Notes under the pieces: model-generated
Told to the model about the DNA's origin: nothing
The model's database searches: none
The model's input: only the letters and a program-made list of their open reading frames with translations
In this document: positions 4,828-63,860 of the stretch, piece after piece
Layout of the letters: every line of letters begins with the position of its first letter
Position numbering within the stretch: position 1 is the first letter of the stretch
Assembly (NCBI GenBank): GCA_964016885.1
Contig: OZ024744.1
Coordinates: 91,078,001 to 91,142,000 of the forward strand
Source: Eledone cirrhosa
Taxonomy: Eukaryota
Direction of reading: 5' to 3'
Length of the DNA: 64,000 nt
Position numbers and translations under genes: made by a program

Positions 4828-4977
4828 TGAATTAAAAAATAGAGCAAGAAACCAGGACTATCCATCATCAGTGATCTACTAGCCATCATAGGTACTTCTT
4901 CGCATTAAAGTACCTATGATGGCCAGAAGATCACTGATGACGGATAGTCCTGGTTTCTTGCTCTATTTTTTAATTCA
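4828..4977. repeat. Long inverted repeat between (TA/CA)n tracts
   Basis: 70-bp arms with about 3 mismatches and a 10-nt loop (4898-4907). Confidence 0.9.
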
Positions 4978-6554
4978 TATATATATATATACATATACAT
5001 ATATATATACATATATATACATATATATATATATACATATATATACATATATATATATATATACATATATATACATATATATATATATACATATATATAT
5101 ATACATATATATACATACATATATACATATATACATATACATATACATATATACATATATATATACATATACATATATATACATATATATATACATATAT
5201 ACATATATACATATACATATATACATATACATATATACATATACATATATACATATACATACATATATATATACATATATCATCATCATCATTTCATCAT
5301 TTCATTTTACGTCCGCTTTTCCCTGCTTGCAAGGGTGGGACGGGAACTGATTCTGGCTTGATTTCTACAGCTGGATGCCCTTCCTAACACCAACCTCATT
5401 TACAGTGAGTGCTGGGTGCTTTTATGCTGTGGCACCTCCACGACCACTTTGCAGTGGAATGATATGGACTCCAGTCCCTATCATCTCATTTCTACAGCTG
5501 AGTAAACTGGAGCAATGTGAAATAAAGTGTCTTGCTCAAGGAAACAACACATCACCCGGTCTGAGAATTGAACTCACAACCTTTCGATTGCAAGGCCAAT
5601 GTCTATGTATATATATACGTATACATATATATATATACATATACATACATATATATACATATATATATATATATATATATATATATACATATATATATAT
5701 ATATATATATATATACATATATATATATATATATATATATATACATATACATATATATATACATATATATACATATATATATATATATATATACATATAT
5801 ATATACATATATATACATATATATACATATAGTGGCTGCCAACTCGTATTCCAGTACGGCCACTACTTTATATCCATGTAGAAGAACCCCTACTGATGCG
5901 CTGAACGAGTGTGACTTTTTAGTCCAGCCAGCGACTTGAAAACTCTGGTACAAACACTACACTTTCGACAATTATTGACACATAGTGCTGGGCCCATGGT
6001 ACCATGTGACGACAAGTGCAGAGAGATCTCCAGATATAAAGCAATGCCTGTGCCGTTAAGCTTTTATAGTGAGCAAAGGCACTGCACAAAGCCAGTCCCA
6101 CTCTCTTAACCAAGATGATATTTACCAAAGAGAAGAACAAGTCAACATCATTGGATACCATCAGAGTTGCAGGTGTTATATCAGAGTTTTCCTTCTCCTA
6201 GAATTCTGCCTTGACAAAAGCTAAAGGGTCATCTCTCCCGGTAATTTTGGATGGCCATTGACTCTTAAGAGCTCCTTTGCCCTTTGACAGGTTTTATTTT
6301 TAGTCCTGCAGGATGTTCAAAGTCACCCTCCTCACCAAGAAACCTTGGTGGGGTTGCCAGTTTAGTCGCCAACGACTATATATACATATATATACATACA
6401 TATATATATATATATATATATATATATACATATACATATACATATATATATATACATATATATATATGTAGGAGGTGAGTTTTATTGTAGTACAATAAAG
6501 CAATGCAGATATCGGATAAGAAGCACTCTACAGTTTGTAGGACTGGAGTATACA

Positions 6555-6675
6555 TAATATATAAGATCAAAAGATGGTTAAATGAGTTCCATGTATTTTA
6601 TTATGCGCATTTCACTGAAATGCGCATAATAAAATACATGGAACTCATTTAACCATCTTTTGATCTTATATATTA
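6555..6675. repeat. Perfect palindrome containing a hammerhead 3' half
   Basis: 60-bp arms around C6615; the arm reads GAAA-T[GCGC]A-TA-ATAAAATACAT. Confidence 0.9.
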
Positions 6676-6696
6676 CATATATATATATATATATAC

Positions 6697-8470
6697 ATTA
6701 AATTAATCGACCAGGTCATGAAGGTCACGGAAAAAGTTATAGCGCAACTAATCAGAGAGCGAATTGATCTAGATGAAATGCAGTTCGGGTTTGTGTCAGG
6801 AAAAAGTACCACAGATGCTCTTTTCATTGTACGACAACTACAGGAGAAGTACCTAGCTAAAAGTAAACCCCTATACTTAGCTTTCGTCGACTTGGAGAAG
6901 GCCTTCGACAGAGTCCCCCGTTCCATTATCTGGTGGGCTCTTAGAAAACTAGGTGTTGATGAATGGCTTGTGAGAGCTATACAAGCCATGTATAAAGAAA
7001 CAGTTAGCAAGGTTAGAATTAACAACGAATATAGTGAAGAGTTTAGTGTAAAAGTTGGTGTTCATCAGGGCTCTGTTCTTAGCCCCCTACTATTTATTAT
7101 TGCCCTCCAGGCTATAACAGTGGAGTTCAAGACCGGCTGCCCATGGGAACTCCTATACGCAGATGATCTAACGCTCATAGCTGAATCAATGGCCGAGCTA
7201 GAGAAGAAATTCCAAACATGGAAGCACGGCCTAGAATCAAAAGGCCTTAAAATTAACCTAGCTAAGACTAAAGTTCTAGTTTGTAAGAAAGAAAATAAGG
7301 CGGCGGACCCCTCCGGGAAGTGGCCATGCGCAGAGTGTAGGAAAGGCGTAGGTAGAAATTCCATTTTGTGTCCCAAATGCAAAGTTTGGGTGCATAAAAG
7401 ATGTAGTGGGATCACAGGTAAGCTAACTAAGAACATAGATTTTACATGTGGCCGGTGTTCTGGGAATATAAGTAGCAGCAAGTGCCCACAAAATACTAGC
7501 TCTTTCAACTGCGCAGAGGGTTCTATAGAAATAGTGGACCGCTTCCGTTACCTGGGTGACAAAATCAGCAGTGGGGGAGGGTGCTCTGAAAGTACAGTAG
7601 CTAGAGTCAGAACTGGGTGGAAAAAGTTCAGAGAGCTTATACCACTATTAGCCGCTAAAGGGTTCTCCCTAAAAATGAAAGGCAGGCTGTACGATGCCTG
7701 CATACGAACAGCAATGTTGCATGGCAGTGAGACCTGGGCATTGTGTGCAGAGGATACGCAGACTAGAGAGAAACGAAGCTTGCATGCTCCGCTGGATGTG
7801 TAATAGTAATATACGTGAACGACAAAGCATAAACGAACTAAGGAAAAAATTAGAAATAAGAGGGATCAGATGTTGTTTACTAGAGAGAAGGCTACGTTGG
7901 TATGGTCACGTGATGCGCATGAAGGATGATAGCTGTATAACAAAGTGCAGGGCAATAAAGATAGACGGTAGCCACGGAATAGGCAGACCCAGAAAAACCT
8001 GGGACGAGCTGATAAACTCCGACCTCACACACTTACACCTCACCAAGACAATGTCACTGGACCGAGACCTTTGGCGGTACTCAATAATAGAGAAGACCCG
8101 CATTGCCAGTAGGCATCTCTAACAAAATACACCCCGTCCCACCACCACCACCCCCACCCCATCCACACCACCCCATTCTATGTATAGTTATGTTGGTGCC
8201 ACGCCATCCAGGCCGAAACAAATGAGATTGTGTAGGTGTCACGACAAAAAAACACACAGTCCACGCTGTAATGTGGCCGTATAGGCAACACGGTAAAAAC
8301 CTCCCAGACCCACACTGTAAATGTGGTTGGTGTTAGGAAGGGCATCCAACTGTAGAAAACCTGCCAGACAGTCCTATGCGAGCAAGAAAATCACTCTTGC
8401 CTCAAGTGGGACTACCCCCGTCCAAACCCATGCAAGCGTGGAACACGGACATTAAACGTTGATGATGATG
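6697..8470 (+). mobile_element. 5'-truncated RTE LINE (subfamily A): RT with PHD-like insertion, one frameshift
   Basis: ORF 6718..7803 has QFGF, FVDLEKAFD, GVHQGSVLSP and LYADD; frameshift near 7755 into ORF 7694..8122; (GAT)n tail. Confidence 0.93.
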
Positions 8471-8682
8471 ATATACATATATATATATATATATATATAT
8501 ATATAACCCCTCAGTATATATATATATATATATATATATATATATATACATATATATATACATATACATATATATACATATACATATATATATATATATA
8601 TACATATACATATATATATATACATATACATATATATACATATACATATATATACATATATATACATATACATATATATATA

Positions 8683-61745: not shown

Positions 61746-62470
61746 CCGTATTTCCCAAAACTGGTCTTATATTATTTTTCCATAAAAAGAAGCTACTAGG
61801 GTTTATTTTCAGGGTAGGGTATATATTTTGACACAAAAAATAACAGCACAAAGGTTTTCATAAAAGTATTGTTATAGTGATGTCAATAAAGGATATATAT
61901 TATAGAGCTAAAAACAATATCATTAAAAGAATTTATTATATTACTTATGAGCAAGACTCTGAAAATATACATTTTATATTATTTTTTATATTATTTTTTT
62001 CACAAAATGTGCTAGGGCTTATTTTCAGGGTAGGGCTTATATTTAAAATGAACAGCAACATAAAAATCACACAAGGACTTATTTTCGAGGTAGGGCTTAT
62101 ATTTAAAATGAACAACAACATAAAAATCACACAAGGACTTATTTTCGAGGTAGGGCTTATATTTAAAATGAACAGCAACATAAAAATCACACAAGGACTT
62201 ATTTTCGAGGTAGGGCTTATATTTAAAATGAACAACATAAAAATTACACAAGGAGTTATTTTTGAGGTAGGACTTATATTTAAAATGAACAACATAAAAA
62301 TTACACAAGGAGTTATTTTTGAGGTAGGGCTAATATTTATAATGAACAACAACATATAAATCACACAAGGACTTATTTTCGAGGTAGGACTTATATTTAA
62401 AATGAACAGCAACATAAAAATCATGGTAGGACTTATTTTTGGAGTAGATTTTATAATAGGGGAAACATGG
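61746..62470. mobile_element. pogo/Tc1-type non-autonomous element with internal 60/57-bp tandem array (62010-62460)
   Basis: TA|ccgtatttccc ... gggaaacatgg|TA. Confidence 0.75.
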
Positions 62471-62504
62471 TATTCACTAGAAAATAGAAATAAATAAAAC
62501 TTAC

Positions 62505-62558
62505 AGGTTCAAAGTCTAGCACCATATGGTCCTGGATTCCATATTTCTCTCTAAATGG
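62505..62558 (-). CDS. LARS1: Leucyl-tRNA synthetase (cytoplasmic), first exon visible in window
   Basis: ag|PFREKYGIQDHMVLDFEP|gtaagt; 54 nt, phase 0/0; resembles the LeuRS editing-domain region (..REKYGI.D.MVL.FEP). Confidence 0.92.
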
Positions 62559-62645
62559 CTGGATTAAAGAAAGGAAGAACCAAATCATTAACAATGAAAT
62601 TCTAACACAATAAAATCACAAGTTATATTTTTTTTATATTGTTTA

Positions 62646-63860
62646 TCTATATTACTAAAACAGAGAATGTCTGTCTGTCTGTCTGTCTCCCTAAAACTCG
62701 AGAACCACCCAACCAAGTTTTTTCAAACTTTACACATGTAATACTTATGGTCCTGTGCGTGTTTTGAGCAAAAAAAATTTCAAATTTTCAATGCCCTAGG
62801 GAACGCATTAGGCGATTTAGCGATCTCTCTCTATAATTCTTAGTCTTTCTCTTTTTAGATAGATACATAGATGTAACGTTGCACCCTTATAATATCTGTC
62901 TGTATGCCTGGTTGTCTGCATTACGTCATTATGATGCGGTGTGTGTGTGTATGTATATATGTATATATGTTGTGTGTGTATATATATATATACAAAAACA
63001 AAATATAAACAAACAAGGCTGGTGATTACATAATCACATGCATCACTGACAGATATTTTTGCATACACAAAAACAAAATATAAACAAACAAGGCTGGTGA
63101 TTACATAATCACATGCATCACTGACAGATATTTTTGCATACACAAAAACAAAATATAAACAAACAAGGCCAACGATTACATCAGTTAGTCTTAGTGTACT
63201 TCATACTGCTTTTAGGTAGAAGATCCTGTTAAGGGTGAAAGCAGCGATTCATTTTCTGCATTCACAGATTGATTTTTTTAGTTTCAGAAGATCCCGTTAA
63301 GGGTGAAAGCAGCGATTCTTTGCTTAAACTTTAATCTGTTATTTTAATATATATATATATAATTATGACCAAATGTTAAACAAGGTTCATTGATTATTCA
63401 ATAAATATAGTTTTACAATAGATTAAAAGCACTCAACAAAGAAGTTTTCTGGAGTTATTAATATTATTCAAAATATTAATAAATGGAAACATTCACATAA
63501 TCAAAATGTCTTGATGGTTCAATTCCAGTATTGGCAGACTGGAATTGAACCATCAGCACAGTTGAGGTATGTCATGTATCAATTTATGTATTTTATCTGA
63601 TGAGTACATACTGAAAAAACAACACAGTACCTCCAAAATATATATAATAAAACATATATTTTGATTATGTGAATGTCTTCATTTATTAATATTTTGAATA
63701 ATATATATATAATTATATATTCGTATAGATATTTTTGCATACACAATAACAAAATATAAACAAAACGTATTTATTTCACGAGGCTCGATAAAGATAAATA
63801 TATATCAAATATATAAGAACCCTAGAGCAAATCCTGAGCAACGCCGGGCCATTCTGCTAG
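62646..63860 (+). mobile_element. Non-autonomous Helitron with internal 75-bp repeats and hammerhead-bearing cargo
   Basis: A|TCTATATTACTAAAA..(gtct)n ... cctgagcaacgccggg..CTAG|T. Confidence 0.68.
63585..63656 (+). ncRNA. Degenerate minimal hammerhead (GAAA>AAAA)
   Basis: UAUGUAUUUUAU-CUGAUGA-G..UACUG/CAGUA..C-AAAA-U[AUAU]A-UA^AUAAAACAUA. Confidence 0.55.

What the first reader, a model, noticed from the sequence alone, without database searches (positions are those of the whole stretch)
4828..63704. Dispersed hammerhead-ribozyme and palindrome elements in and downstream of the LARS1 introns
Seen: six hammerhead-like cores (9927, 10566, 43540, two at 59218-59395, 63585), a mirrored half-hammerhead (6555) and further long palindromes (4828, 10102, 43834, 63461). 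Nearly all lie near (TA)n tracts. Stem sequences differ between copies, yet the cores keep CUGANGA/GAAA/NUH or differ by one base. Known: Penelope-like retroelements carry minimal type-I hammerheads in their pLTRs and often leave inverted pLTR copies, and non-autonomous retrozymes exist in animals. Inference: these are several ribozyme-bearing PLE or retrozyme families, with no RT or GIY-YIG coding sequence visible here. Four motifs are on the LARS1 sense strand.
Basis: partly seen in the sequence, partly recalled or inferred. Interest (0 to 1): 0.8.

Follow-up and report, generated by a model that had tools for sequence, protein, structure and literature searches.

The report
Rearranged hammerhead ribozyme in octopus retroelements
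The flagged motifs are broken-off ends of eight jumping-gene (Penelope-like) families sitting in an octopus gene's introns; one family, with over 10,000 copies, carries the parts of a self-cutting hammerhead RNA in a rearranged order reported so far mainly from environmental RNA, and it is predicted, not yet shown, to cut itself.

Summary
The cores and palindromes are real. They are truncated, often folded-back 3' ends of eight repeat families with Penelope-like (PLE) architecture, inserted at (TA)n; all lie in LARS1 introns. Three families link to PLE RT/GIY-YIG sequence (two Hydra-like). Type I hammerheads in octopus Hydra PLEs are already published, so that part is known.

It belongs to a non-coding 500-680 nt tandem family (10,290 exact motif hits, 0 controls). 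Intact copies carry the hammerhead blocks in non-circular order: cleavage site, GAAA, then CUGAUGA. Stems covary across subfamilies (94% of cells paired, 10 of 20 pairs changed on both sides), and stem III runs into a predicted kink-turn. Read by eye, published Naiad PLE consensus ends, said to lack hammerheads, show the same or the sister CSG order in 13 of 20 passages seen. The paper describing such permutations found none in animal genomes.

Cleavage is untested, stem II is irregular in the octopus family, and the window's own copy lacks the cleavage site.

The parts
4779..4976 (-). Family G fold-back copy. Main arm with tail on minus (4779-4910), inverted arm on plus. It keeps the linker, a damaged GAAA block (GAAG), stem III strand, k-turn strand, stem I strand and CUGAUGA (4865-4871). 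It is truncated just 5' of the linker, so it lacks the cleavage-site block.
   Evidence: covariance model hits 4829-4935 minus (77.7 bits) and 4870-4976 plus (58.2 bits)
6549..6681 (+). Family H fold-back of the 3' half of a type I hammerhead (GAAA, palindromic stem III, site, stem I strand). Other copies carry the whole motif; family linked to a Hydra-like GIY-YIG about 1 kb upstream.
9912..10136 (-). Family B (Hydra-clade PLE) 3' end without tail; type I motif 9928-10023 with family-fixed CUGAGAA core
10139..10178 (+). Inverted 5' arm of the same family B copy (the '10102 palindrome')
10374..10841 (-). Family D PLE 3' end; core 10577-10610 with extra U after A9, 6-bp stem II, weak stems I and III; family links to RT plus C-terminal GIY-YIG
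43500..43702 (-). Family E 3' end; minimal type I motif 43543-43608 with palindromic stem III and U.U at 10.1-11.1; family is a 1.3-1.4 kb non-coding tandem unit
43720..43823 (+). Inverted tail fragment of the family E insertion
43832..44072 (.). Family F fold-back plus tail; variant type I core CAGAAGA at 43882-43888 on minus, GAAA damaged in this copy
59183..59475 (+). Family A insertion: main arm with 65-nt tail and type I motif (core from 59330), plus inverted arm with a second motif on minus (59225-59283)
63281..63361 (+).
63461..63736 (+). Family I insertion with inverted arm; type I motif from 63597, G12A in this copy; family majority is a canonical dimer-type hammerhead
11259..62561 (-). 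Host gene LARS1 (cytoplasmic leucyl-tRNA synthetase), 17 exon matches for aa 406-1062; further exons lie outside both window ends

Best explanation
These are truncated, often folded-back 3' ends of eight repeat families with Penelope-like architecture inserted at (TA)n in LARS1 introns; seven carry type I hammerhead motifs or variants, and the family at 4828 carries the hammerhead blocks in non-circularly permuted order and is predicted to self-cleave. Likely mechanism: a PLE GIY-YIG nuclease cuts (TA)n, reverse transcription starts in the tail region and stops early, and a second priming or snap-back adds an inverted tail-less copy, giving the palindromes (inferred). The ribozyme would cut read-through or tandem transcripts into unit RNAs. 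In family G the order is: upstream strand X, NC helix strand, k-turn, stem III strand, site NUH, stem I strand, short linker, stem II strand, GAAA, stem III strand, k-turn, NC strand, stem I strand, CUGAUGA. Stem II would be built from one or two pairs with the bases after CUGAUGA plus 4-5 pairs with strand X, and the k-turn would bring the far end of stem III back to the far ends of stems I and II (inferred). Family G is likely a non-autonomous relative of Naiad PLEs, now moved by another PLE's enzyme. The intronic copies are likely inert passengers.
For: Family membership and PLE architecture. Inverted junctions in A 21/30, B 7/25, E 4/20, H 8/19, I 12/20, D 0/15 top loci. ORF links: B, 3436 nt at 94.6% between L127 and L128 from RT through EN to the ribozyme, with the Hydra marks RWR, DKT, CxCx5C; H, EN about 1 kb upstream in 3 of 5 long loci; D, RT and GIY-YIG pieces in the 3 of 5 long loci that I translated. 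Family G: 5194+5096 exact hits, 0 controls. Tandem spacing mostly 500-680 nt. Pair counts: 96.2% paired against 87.8% shuffled in 26 rows; 94.0% against 83.5% and 10 of 20 pairs changed on both sides in 30 rows. Descriptor hit 5 of 6 natural monomers and 0 of 12,000 shuffles. 0 of 61 chance pattern hits in metagenome and viral contigs reached stems III>=3 with I>=4. Core kept in rows chosen without it: G6 GAAA 21/21, CUGAnGA 21/21, site UC 20/21; G1 31/35, 28/35, UC or UA 30/35. Subfamily G6 has the canonical G10.1-C11.1 pair. Naiad consensus ends in the Craig 2021 supplement, read by eye, show all three stems with different letters in 13 of 20 non-coding CUGAnGA passages seen.
Against: No cleavage data. 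Stem II in family G is irregular: the 10.1-11.1 pair held in 22 of 29 rows, and the X helix is conserved rather than covarying within the family (86.7% paired). Pseudoknot-free folding gives unremarkable z-scores (-0.4 to -1.5), and the youngest subfamily prefers another fold. Rows are related, so pair counts overstate independent events; the descriptor was written after seeing the sequences, and many rows were picked by a pattern that fixes the core. No intact Naiad ORF was found in this genome, only one decayed remnant without the motif, so the Naiad link is by shared RNA structure only. Families A, E, F, G and I were not tied to an ORF. Young family B spreads with a non-canonical core, and in one PLE studied in vitro the hammerhead was not needed for insertion (PMC11167929).
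Confidence: 0.8

Rival explanations
1. Family G's structure is a protein-binding k-turn/pseudoknot signal for the PLE enzyme or Snu13; the hammerhead letters are a relic and it no longer cleaves.
For: Irregular stem II. AUGAUG/CUGA matches the box C/D k-turn consensus (recalled). CUGAUGA also reads as box C. Family B spreads with a broken-looking core. Hammerhead dispensable for insertion in PMC11167929.
Against: All core letters sit at the right helix junctions and stay fixed while stems change across subfamilies whose monomers are mostly 50-80% alike per 50-column window. G6 has G10.1-C11.1. Nematode Naiad ends show a regular three-stem CSG form. No upstream box C.
Confidence: 0.17
2. The palindromes are MITEs or foldback DNA transposons whose arms are terminal inverted repeats.
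For: Many copies are near-perfect palindromes in TA sites.
Against: Centres vary from copy to copy, only one arm has the tail, many copies have no inverted arm, and long copies run into RT/GIY-YIG or tandem units.
Confidence: 0.02
3. The motifs are host-kept regulators that cut LARS1 pre-mRNA.
For: Five cores lie on the LARS1 sense strand (9927, 10566, 43540, 43834, 59218 left).
Against: They are ordinary members of families with thousands of copies, up to 97-99% alike. The sense copies are damaged, need a dimer, sit in a perfect hairpin or fold otherwise.
Confidence: 0.03
4. The cores are chance matches in AT-rich DNA.
For: No Rfam hammerhead hit; a strict scan ranked chance matches first; 3 of the 6 named cores fail the graded descriptor.
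Against: 4 hits against 0.12 expected; cores are family majorities; stems covary in family A relatives, modestly (91.8% against 89.9%, 6 of 18 pairs) and strongly in G.
Confidence: 0.01

Closest known systems
Hydra-clade PLEs with type I hammerheads, including Hydra-1_Obim of Octopus bimaculoides (Craig et al. 2021, PMC8557442)
   Same: Family B has RT plus C-terminal GIY-YIG with RWR, DKT, CxCx5C, CxxC/CxH, a 3' hammerhead, (TA)n target, tail and inverted 5' copy. U.U or an extra base at 10.1 (families D, E, F) also appears in their File S2 rows.
   Different: Different families from Hydra-1_Obim by eye; about 3.5 kb with a 1.2-kb 3' UTR; fixed core variants CUGAGAA (B) and CAGAAGA (F).
Type-SGC and type-CSG hammerhead ribozymes (Eckert et al. 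2023, PMC10085705)
   Same: Block order site-GAAA-CUGAnGA; short linker from stem I to stem II; covarying stems I and III; far ends of the stems tied together.
   Different: Here in an animal genome, in a retroelement with over 10,000 copies; theirs came from metatranscriptomes and metagenomes. Most of stem II is made with an upstream strand, so the chain is opened between A9 and 10.1, which their six-permutation scheme does not allow. Stem III carries a predicted k-turn. Not tested for cleavage.
Naiad PLEs (Craig et al. 2021)
   Same: Naiad_Obim and Naiad_Ovul 3' ends show the same layout as family G, including the k-turn loop, upstream-made stem II and an upstream hairpin with a TATTTT loop; (TA)n target.
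   Different: The authors report that Naiads lack canonical hammerheads (HHR_core or half_core only). Family G has no ORF, and no intact Naiad was found in this genome.
Animal non-LTR retrozymes (PMC7761336; bioRxiv 10.64898/2026.07.22.740005)
   Same: Non-coding tandem units with one ribozyme each, tied to PLEs.
   Different: Units are 500-680 nt (G) or 1.3-1.4 kb (E) rather than about 150-300; G's ribozyme is not type I; circular RNA not shown.

Membership tests
Penelope-like elements | PLE RT plus GIY-YIG endonuclease | tested here: met
   Met for B, D and, for the endonuclease, H. Motifs read by eye; Pfam gave 0 families for the two B proteins.
Penelope-like elements | Same, for families A, E, F, G, I | tested here: inconclusive
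   A: one suggestive locus of 20. E: none in 4 long loci; I: none in 2. G: closed non-coding units. F: long copies not fetched.
Penelope-like elements | Partial tandems, inverted 5'-truncated copy, tail on one end, microsatellite target | tested here: met
   description in PMC8557442
Hydra clade PLE (family B) | RWK-like and DKT motifs, CxCx5C linker, CxxC and CxH around E and N, (TA)n target | tested here: met
   L127/L128 translations against section 11 of PMC8557442; no tree built
Type I hammerhead (families A, E, H, I) | CUGAnGA, GAAA, NUH with stems I-III in family-majority copies | tested here: met
Type I hammerhead (families B, D, F) | Intact core and three stems | tested here: not met
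   B CUGAGAA 25/33; F CAGAAGA 37/48; D stems I and III weak
Type-SGC hammerhead (family G) | All core nucleotides, blocks in order S-G-C | tested here: met
Type-SGC hammerhead (family G) | Stems I and III with covariation | tested here: met
   Stem I 95.6% paired, 2 of 6 pairs changed on both sides; stem III 97.3% paired but nearly invariant, its extension 5 of 6 pairs changed
Type-SGC hammerhead (family G) | Stem II formed by the strand right after CUGAnGA | tested here: inconclusive
   One pair in most subfamilies (22 of 29 rows), two plus a distal helix in G6; the GAAA-side strand also pairs with an upstream strand
Type-SGC hammerhead (family G) | Site-specific self-cleavage | not testable with these tools
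   needs an in vitro assay
Standard kink-turn | C helix, 3-nt bulge, tandem G.A/A.G, NC helix | tested here: met
   The four G/A positions are invariant in alignment A1 (some rows were picked with a pattern touching them); G6 has U at 2n. Consensus recalled, not from a call; the fold itself is untested.
Naiad PLE (family G as non-autonomous member) | N-terminal GIY-YIG, C-terminal RT partner sharing the 3' end | tested here: inconclusive
   Shared RNA layout with published octopus Naiads; no intact Naiad found by four short patterns, one decayed remnant
Non-LTR retrozyme | Tandem non-coding units each with a ribozyme | tested here: met
   up to four successive copies
Non-LTR retrozyme | Type I hammerhead | tested here: not met
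   G is S-G-C order; E meets it
Non-LTR retrozyme | Circular RNA monomers | not testable with these tools
   no RNA holder listed

The most novel reading that the evidence does not exclude
Naiad retroelements across ctenophores, cnidarians, nematodes, arthropods and molluscs do not lack hammerheads: they carry active non-circularly permuted ones. Nematodes have type CSG; the others have a new form opened between A9 and G10.1, with a kink-turn in octopus. The octopus family at 4828 is a non-autonomous retrozyme built on it, with over 10,000 copies, making rearranged hammerheads common in animal genomes.
Probability: 0.68. Interest if true: 0.88.

Novelty: new variant of a known kind. Interest (0 to 1): 0.8.

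Why it matters
Non-circular hammerhead permutations were reported in 2023 from environmental sequence, with no eukaryote genome example in that paper. Finding one in a young, very abundant animal retroelement gives natural variants in the thousands, a further chain opening outside the six-permutation scheme, and a k-turn that could make cleavage protein-dependent. It would also answer why Naiad PLEs seemed to be the one animal PLE clade without hammerheads: the descriptors assumed the wrong order. The test is a one-week in vitro assay. The other seven families are ordinary PLE debris.

Tried and rejected
Rfam scan: no hammerhead family. Strict type I scan: uninformative, chance hits ranked first. 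Twister, pistol, HDV-like and box C/D snoRNA readings of family G were considered from recalled consensus and dropped because the helix order or the closing stems do not fit. Pattern scans of metagenome contigs (52 hits) and viral contigs (9 hits): none had stems I and III, so no outside relative was found. Sequencing runs: no RNA holder listed; the three contig runs laid were uninformative on expression. Two motif pairs 2.9 kb apart looked like an autonomous G element but were a segmental duplicate with an unrelated opposite-strand ORF. EN hits upstream of two G3 copies were separate insertions. The Naiad_Ovul motif is not in this genome (19 one-mismatch hits, none the motif). Naiad ORF patterns gave 0, 0 and 1 hit. 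A generic S-G-C scan of 2.85 Mb of held octopus strands found no further family. The upstream-base column had an unreliable register and was not used. Lunse et al. 2017 was not held, so whether CUGAGAA or CAGAAGA cores are known active variants is unchecked. Supplements of Eckert 2023 and of the 2026 preprint were not read and may bear on novelty. Earlier scan findings: none returned.
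Full report
Setting. The window is G000:C28:91078001-91142000 of a 3.0-Gb genome. An exon matches cytoplasmic leucyl-tRNA synthetase, best 95% to the Octopus bimaculoides protein. Exons for aa 406-1062 run from 62561 to 11259 on the minus strand. The last two exons lie about 170-180 kb left of the window, so every flagged element is intronic.

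Observation. All cores and palindromes are present. Rfam found no hammerhead among 110 matches, and a strict scan was swamped by chance hits. A graded descriptor gave 4 hits against 0.12 in 25 shuffles: 9927, the right arm of 59218, 43540 and a new one at 63285. The other named cores are damaged or irregular.

Families. Each element was searched in its own genome; only the best 40 candidates are scored per search. Candidates: A (59218) 751 and 1072, B (9927) 2190, E (43540) 1345, H (6555) 174, I (63585) 1327, D (10566) 821, F (43834) 2428, G (4828) 2019. The best B and E copies are 97-99% identical to the window copies. Copies end in (TA)n, carry a tail on one end only, and often have an inverted truncated copy at the 5' side with a variable centre. 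Inverted junctions were counted in 21/30, 7/25, 4/20, 8/19, 12/20 and 0/15 top loci of A, B, E, H, I and D. A TA run lay near the 3' end in 126 of 129 loci; that count had no control, and two queries included TA. This is the PLE insertion layout described in PMC8557442 (passages).

Coding links. B runs into RT and GIY-YIG with the Hydra-clade marks (section 11). H has a Hydra-like endonuclease about 1 kb upstream in 3 of 5 long loci. [quoted passage not shown] E is a 1.3-1.4 kb tandem unit without a PLE ORF in 4 of 4 long loci. A, F and I were not tied to an ORF. No PLE coding sequence is detected in the window. A Hydra element with a type I hammerhead is already listed for O. bimaculoides (supplement rows), and opposite-strand pairs of minimal hammerheads are described in PMC4209133 (first quarter read). 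So this layer is known.

Type I cores. Family majorities are canonical in A, H and I; E has U.U at 10.1-11.1; D has an extra U and weak stems I and III; B has CUGAGAA and F has CAGAAGA. Family A stems covary modestly (91.8% paired against 89.9%; 6 of 18 pairs). Most window copies do not fold into the active shape as single strands.

Family G. The 4828 palindrome is cut just 5' of the core, but longer copies show the blocks in the order cleavage site, GAAA, CUGAUGA. A 15-base pattern spanning the last two blocks has 10,290 exact hits and 0 controls. Units are non-coding and form partial tandems, mostly 500-680 nt apart, up to four in a row. One subfamily is 99-100% identical among its best copies. 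In 30 rows from about seven subfamilies, 94.0% of cells pair against 83.5% shuffled, and 10 of 20 pairs change on both sides (for an earlier set of 26). These rows are related and many were chosen by a core pattern. In rows chosen by an anchor outside the core, the core still holds: G6 21/21, 21/21 and 20/21; G1 31/35, 28/35 and 30/35; G3 4/5, 5/5 and 5/5. A descriptor written after the fact hit 5 of 6 monomers and 0 of 12,000 shuffles. Stem II is the weak point. One pair with the base after CUGAUGA holds in 22 of 29 rows. Subfamily G6 (149 exact hits) has G10.1-C11.1. The GAAA-side strand also pairs with an upstream strand (86.7%, little covariation).

Comparison with permuted hammerheads. 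Eckert et al. (PMC10085705; parts 1, 3, 4, 5 of 8 read) define types SGC and CSG, show cleavage, and state that none was found in genomes of known organisms apart from one bacterial candidate.

Naiads. Craig et al. state that Naiads lack canonical hammerheads and flag some as HHR_core or half_core. I read their consensus file by eye: parts 24 and 25 whole, and passages around CUGAnGA (60 of 62 places for one spelling, the first 5 for six others). Of 20 non-coding Naiad passages seen, 13 show all three stems. Seven have the family G order with stem II made by an upstream strand: two octopus, three Acropora, and two entries in parts 12 and 19. Six nematode-section entries have a regular C-S-G order. 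Three fit in part (squid, ctenophore, one arthropod-section entry), and four do not fit or are unclear. Names follow headers or file order, which lists 54 families, so most were not seen. The octopus Naiads also share the k-turn loop and an upstream hairpin with family G. In this genome only a decayed Naiad remnant was found.

Is it in print? A search for 'type-SGC' returned only Eckert. Naiad plus hammerhead returned three papers; I read two in part and neither reports a permuted motif in what I saw. Octopus plus hammerhead ribozyme, non-circular permutation plus retrotransposon and hammerhead, kink-turn, SGC gave nothing further. Subscription papers are not covered.

Mechanism. Shown: families, architecture, ORF links for three families, block order, paired and covarying stems. 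Inferred: target priming at (TA)n, start of reverse transcription in the tail (as shown for one PLE in PMC11167929, passages), snap-back or second priming for the inverted arm, the three-dimensional fold, cleavage, and Naiad ancestry of G. I put PLE origin at 0.95, the permuted hammerhead fold at 0.85 and cleavage in at least one subfamily at 0.7.

Verdict. The finding as given is real and of a known kind. Following its unexplained palindrome led to a permuted hammerhead in an abundant animal retroelement and probably across Naiads: a new variant of a known kind, interest 0.8.

Noticed in passing
   Followed up: partly
window 1-11258 and G000:C28:90908883-91089259: LARS1 has an intron of about 180 kb before its last two exons.
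   Followed up: yes
tails of families A, B, E, F (L032, L062, L088, L182): Tails share a short GAGYRC-type motif that also appears after the hammerhead in published Hydra consensus ends; a possible enzyme recognition signal.
   Followed up: no
family G monomers, aligned columns 200-250: A second conserved block (82% mean identity) in the middle of the non-coding unit, function not examined.
   Followed up: no
window 9928-9965 (minus): In family B a repeated 8-mer lets the strand after GAAA pair either into stem III or back over GAAA, a possible on/off switch; the off fold wins in the energy model.
   Followed up: partly
L072, L159 (G2) and L131, L158, L041 (A relatives), L272: Further hammerhead-bearing families turn up nested in the same TA tracts; PLE ends cluster in shared microsatellite targets.
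   Followed up: partly
L482:3900-4400: Heavily decayed Naiad-like RT remnant, without its 3' motif.
   Followed up: partly
window 36605-36662: tRNA-like Rfam match just above the gathering score (31.2 bits), probably the head of a SINE; weaker copies at 25393, 37438, 50867.
   Followed up: no
window 44592-46530: Tandem array of 71/74-bp units, about 27 copies, 91% alike.
   Followed up: no
window 8105-8472 and 9328-9695: 368-nt inverted pair, 98% complementary, 855 nt apart; LINE/SINE-type repeat copies.
   Followed up: no
window 42081-42326 and 49868-50176 (minus), and similar: Many 3' fragments of an RTE-type LINE (label recalled) ending in (ATG)n across the window.
   Followed up: no
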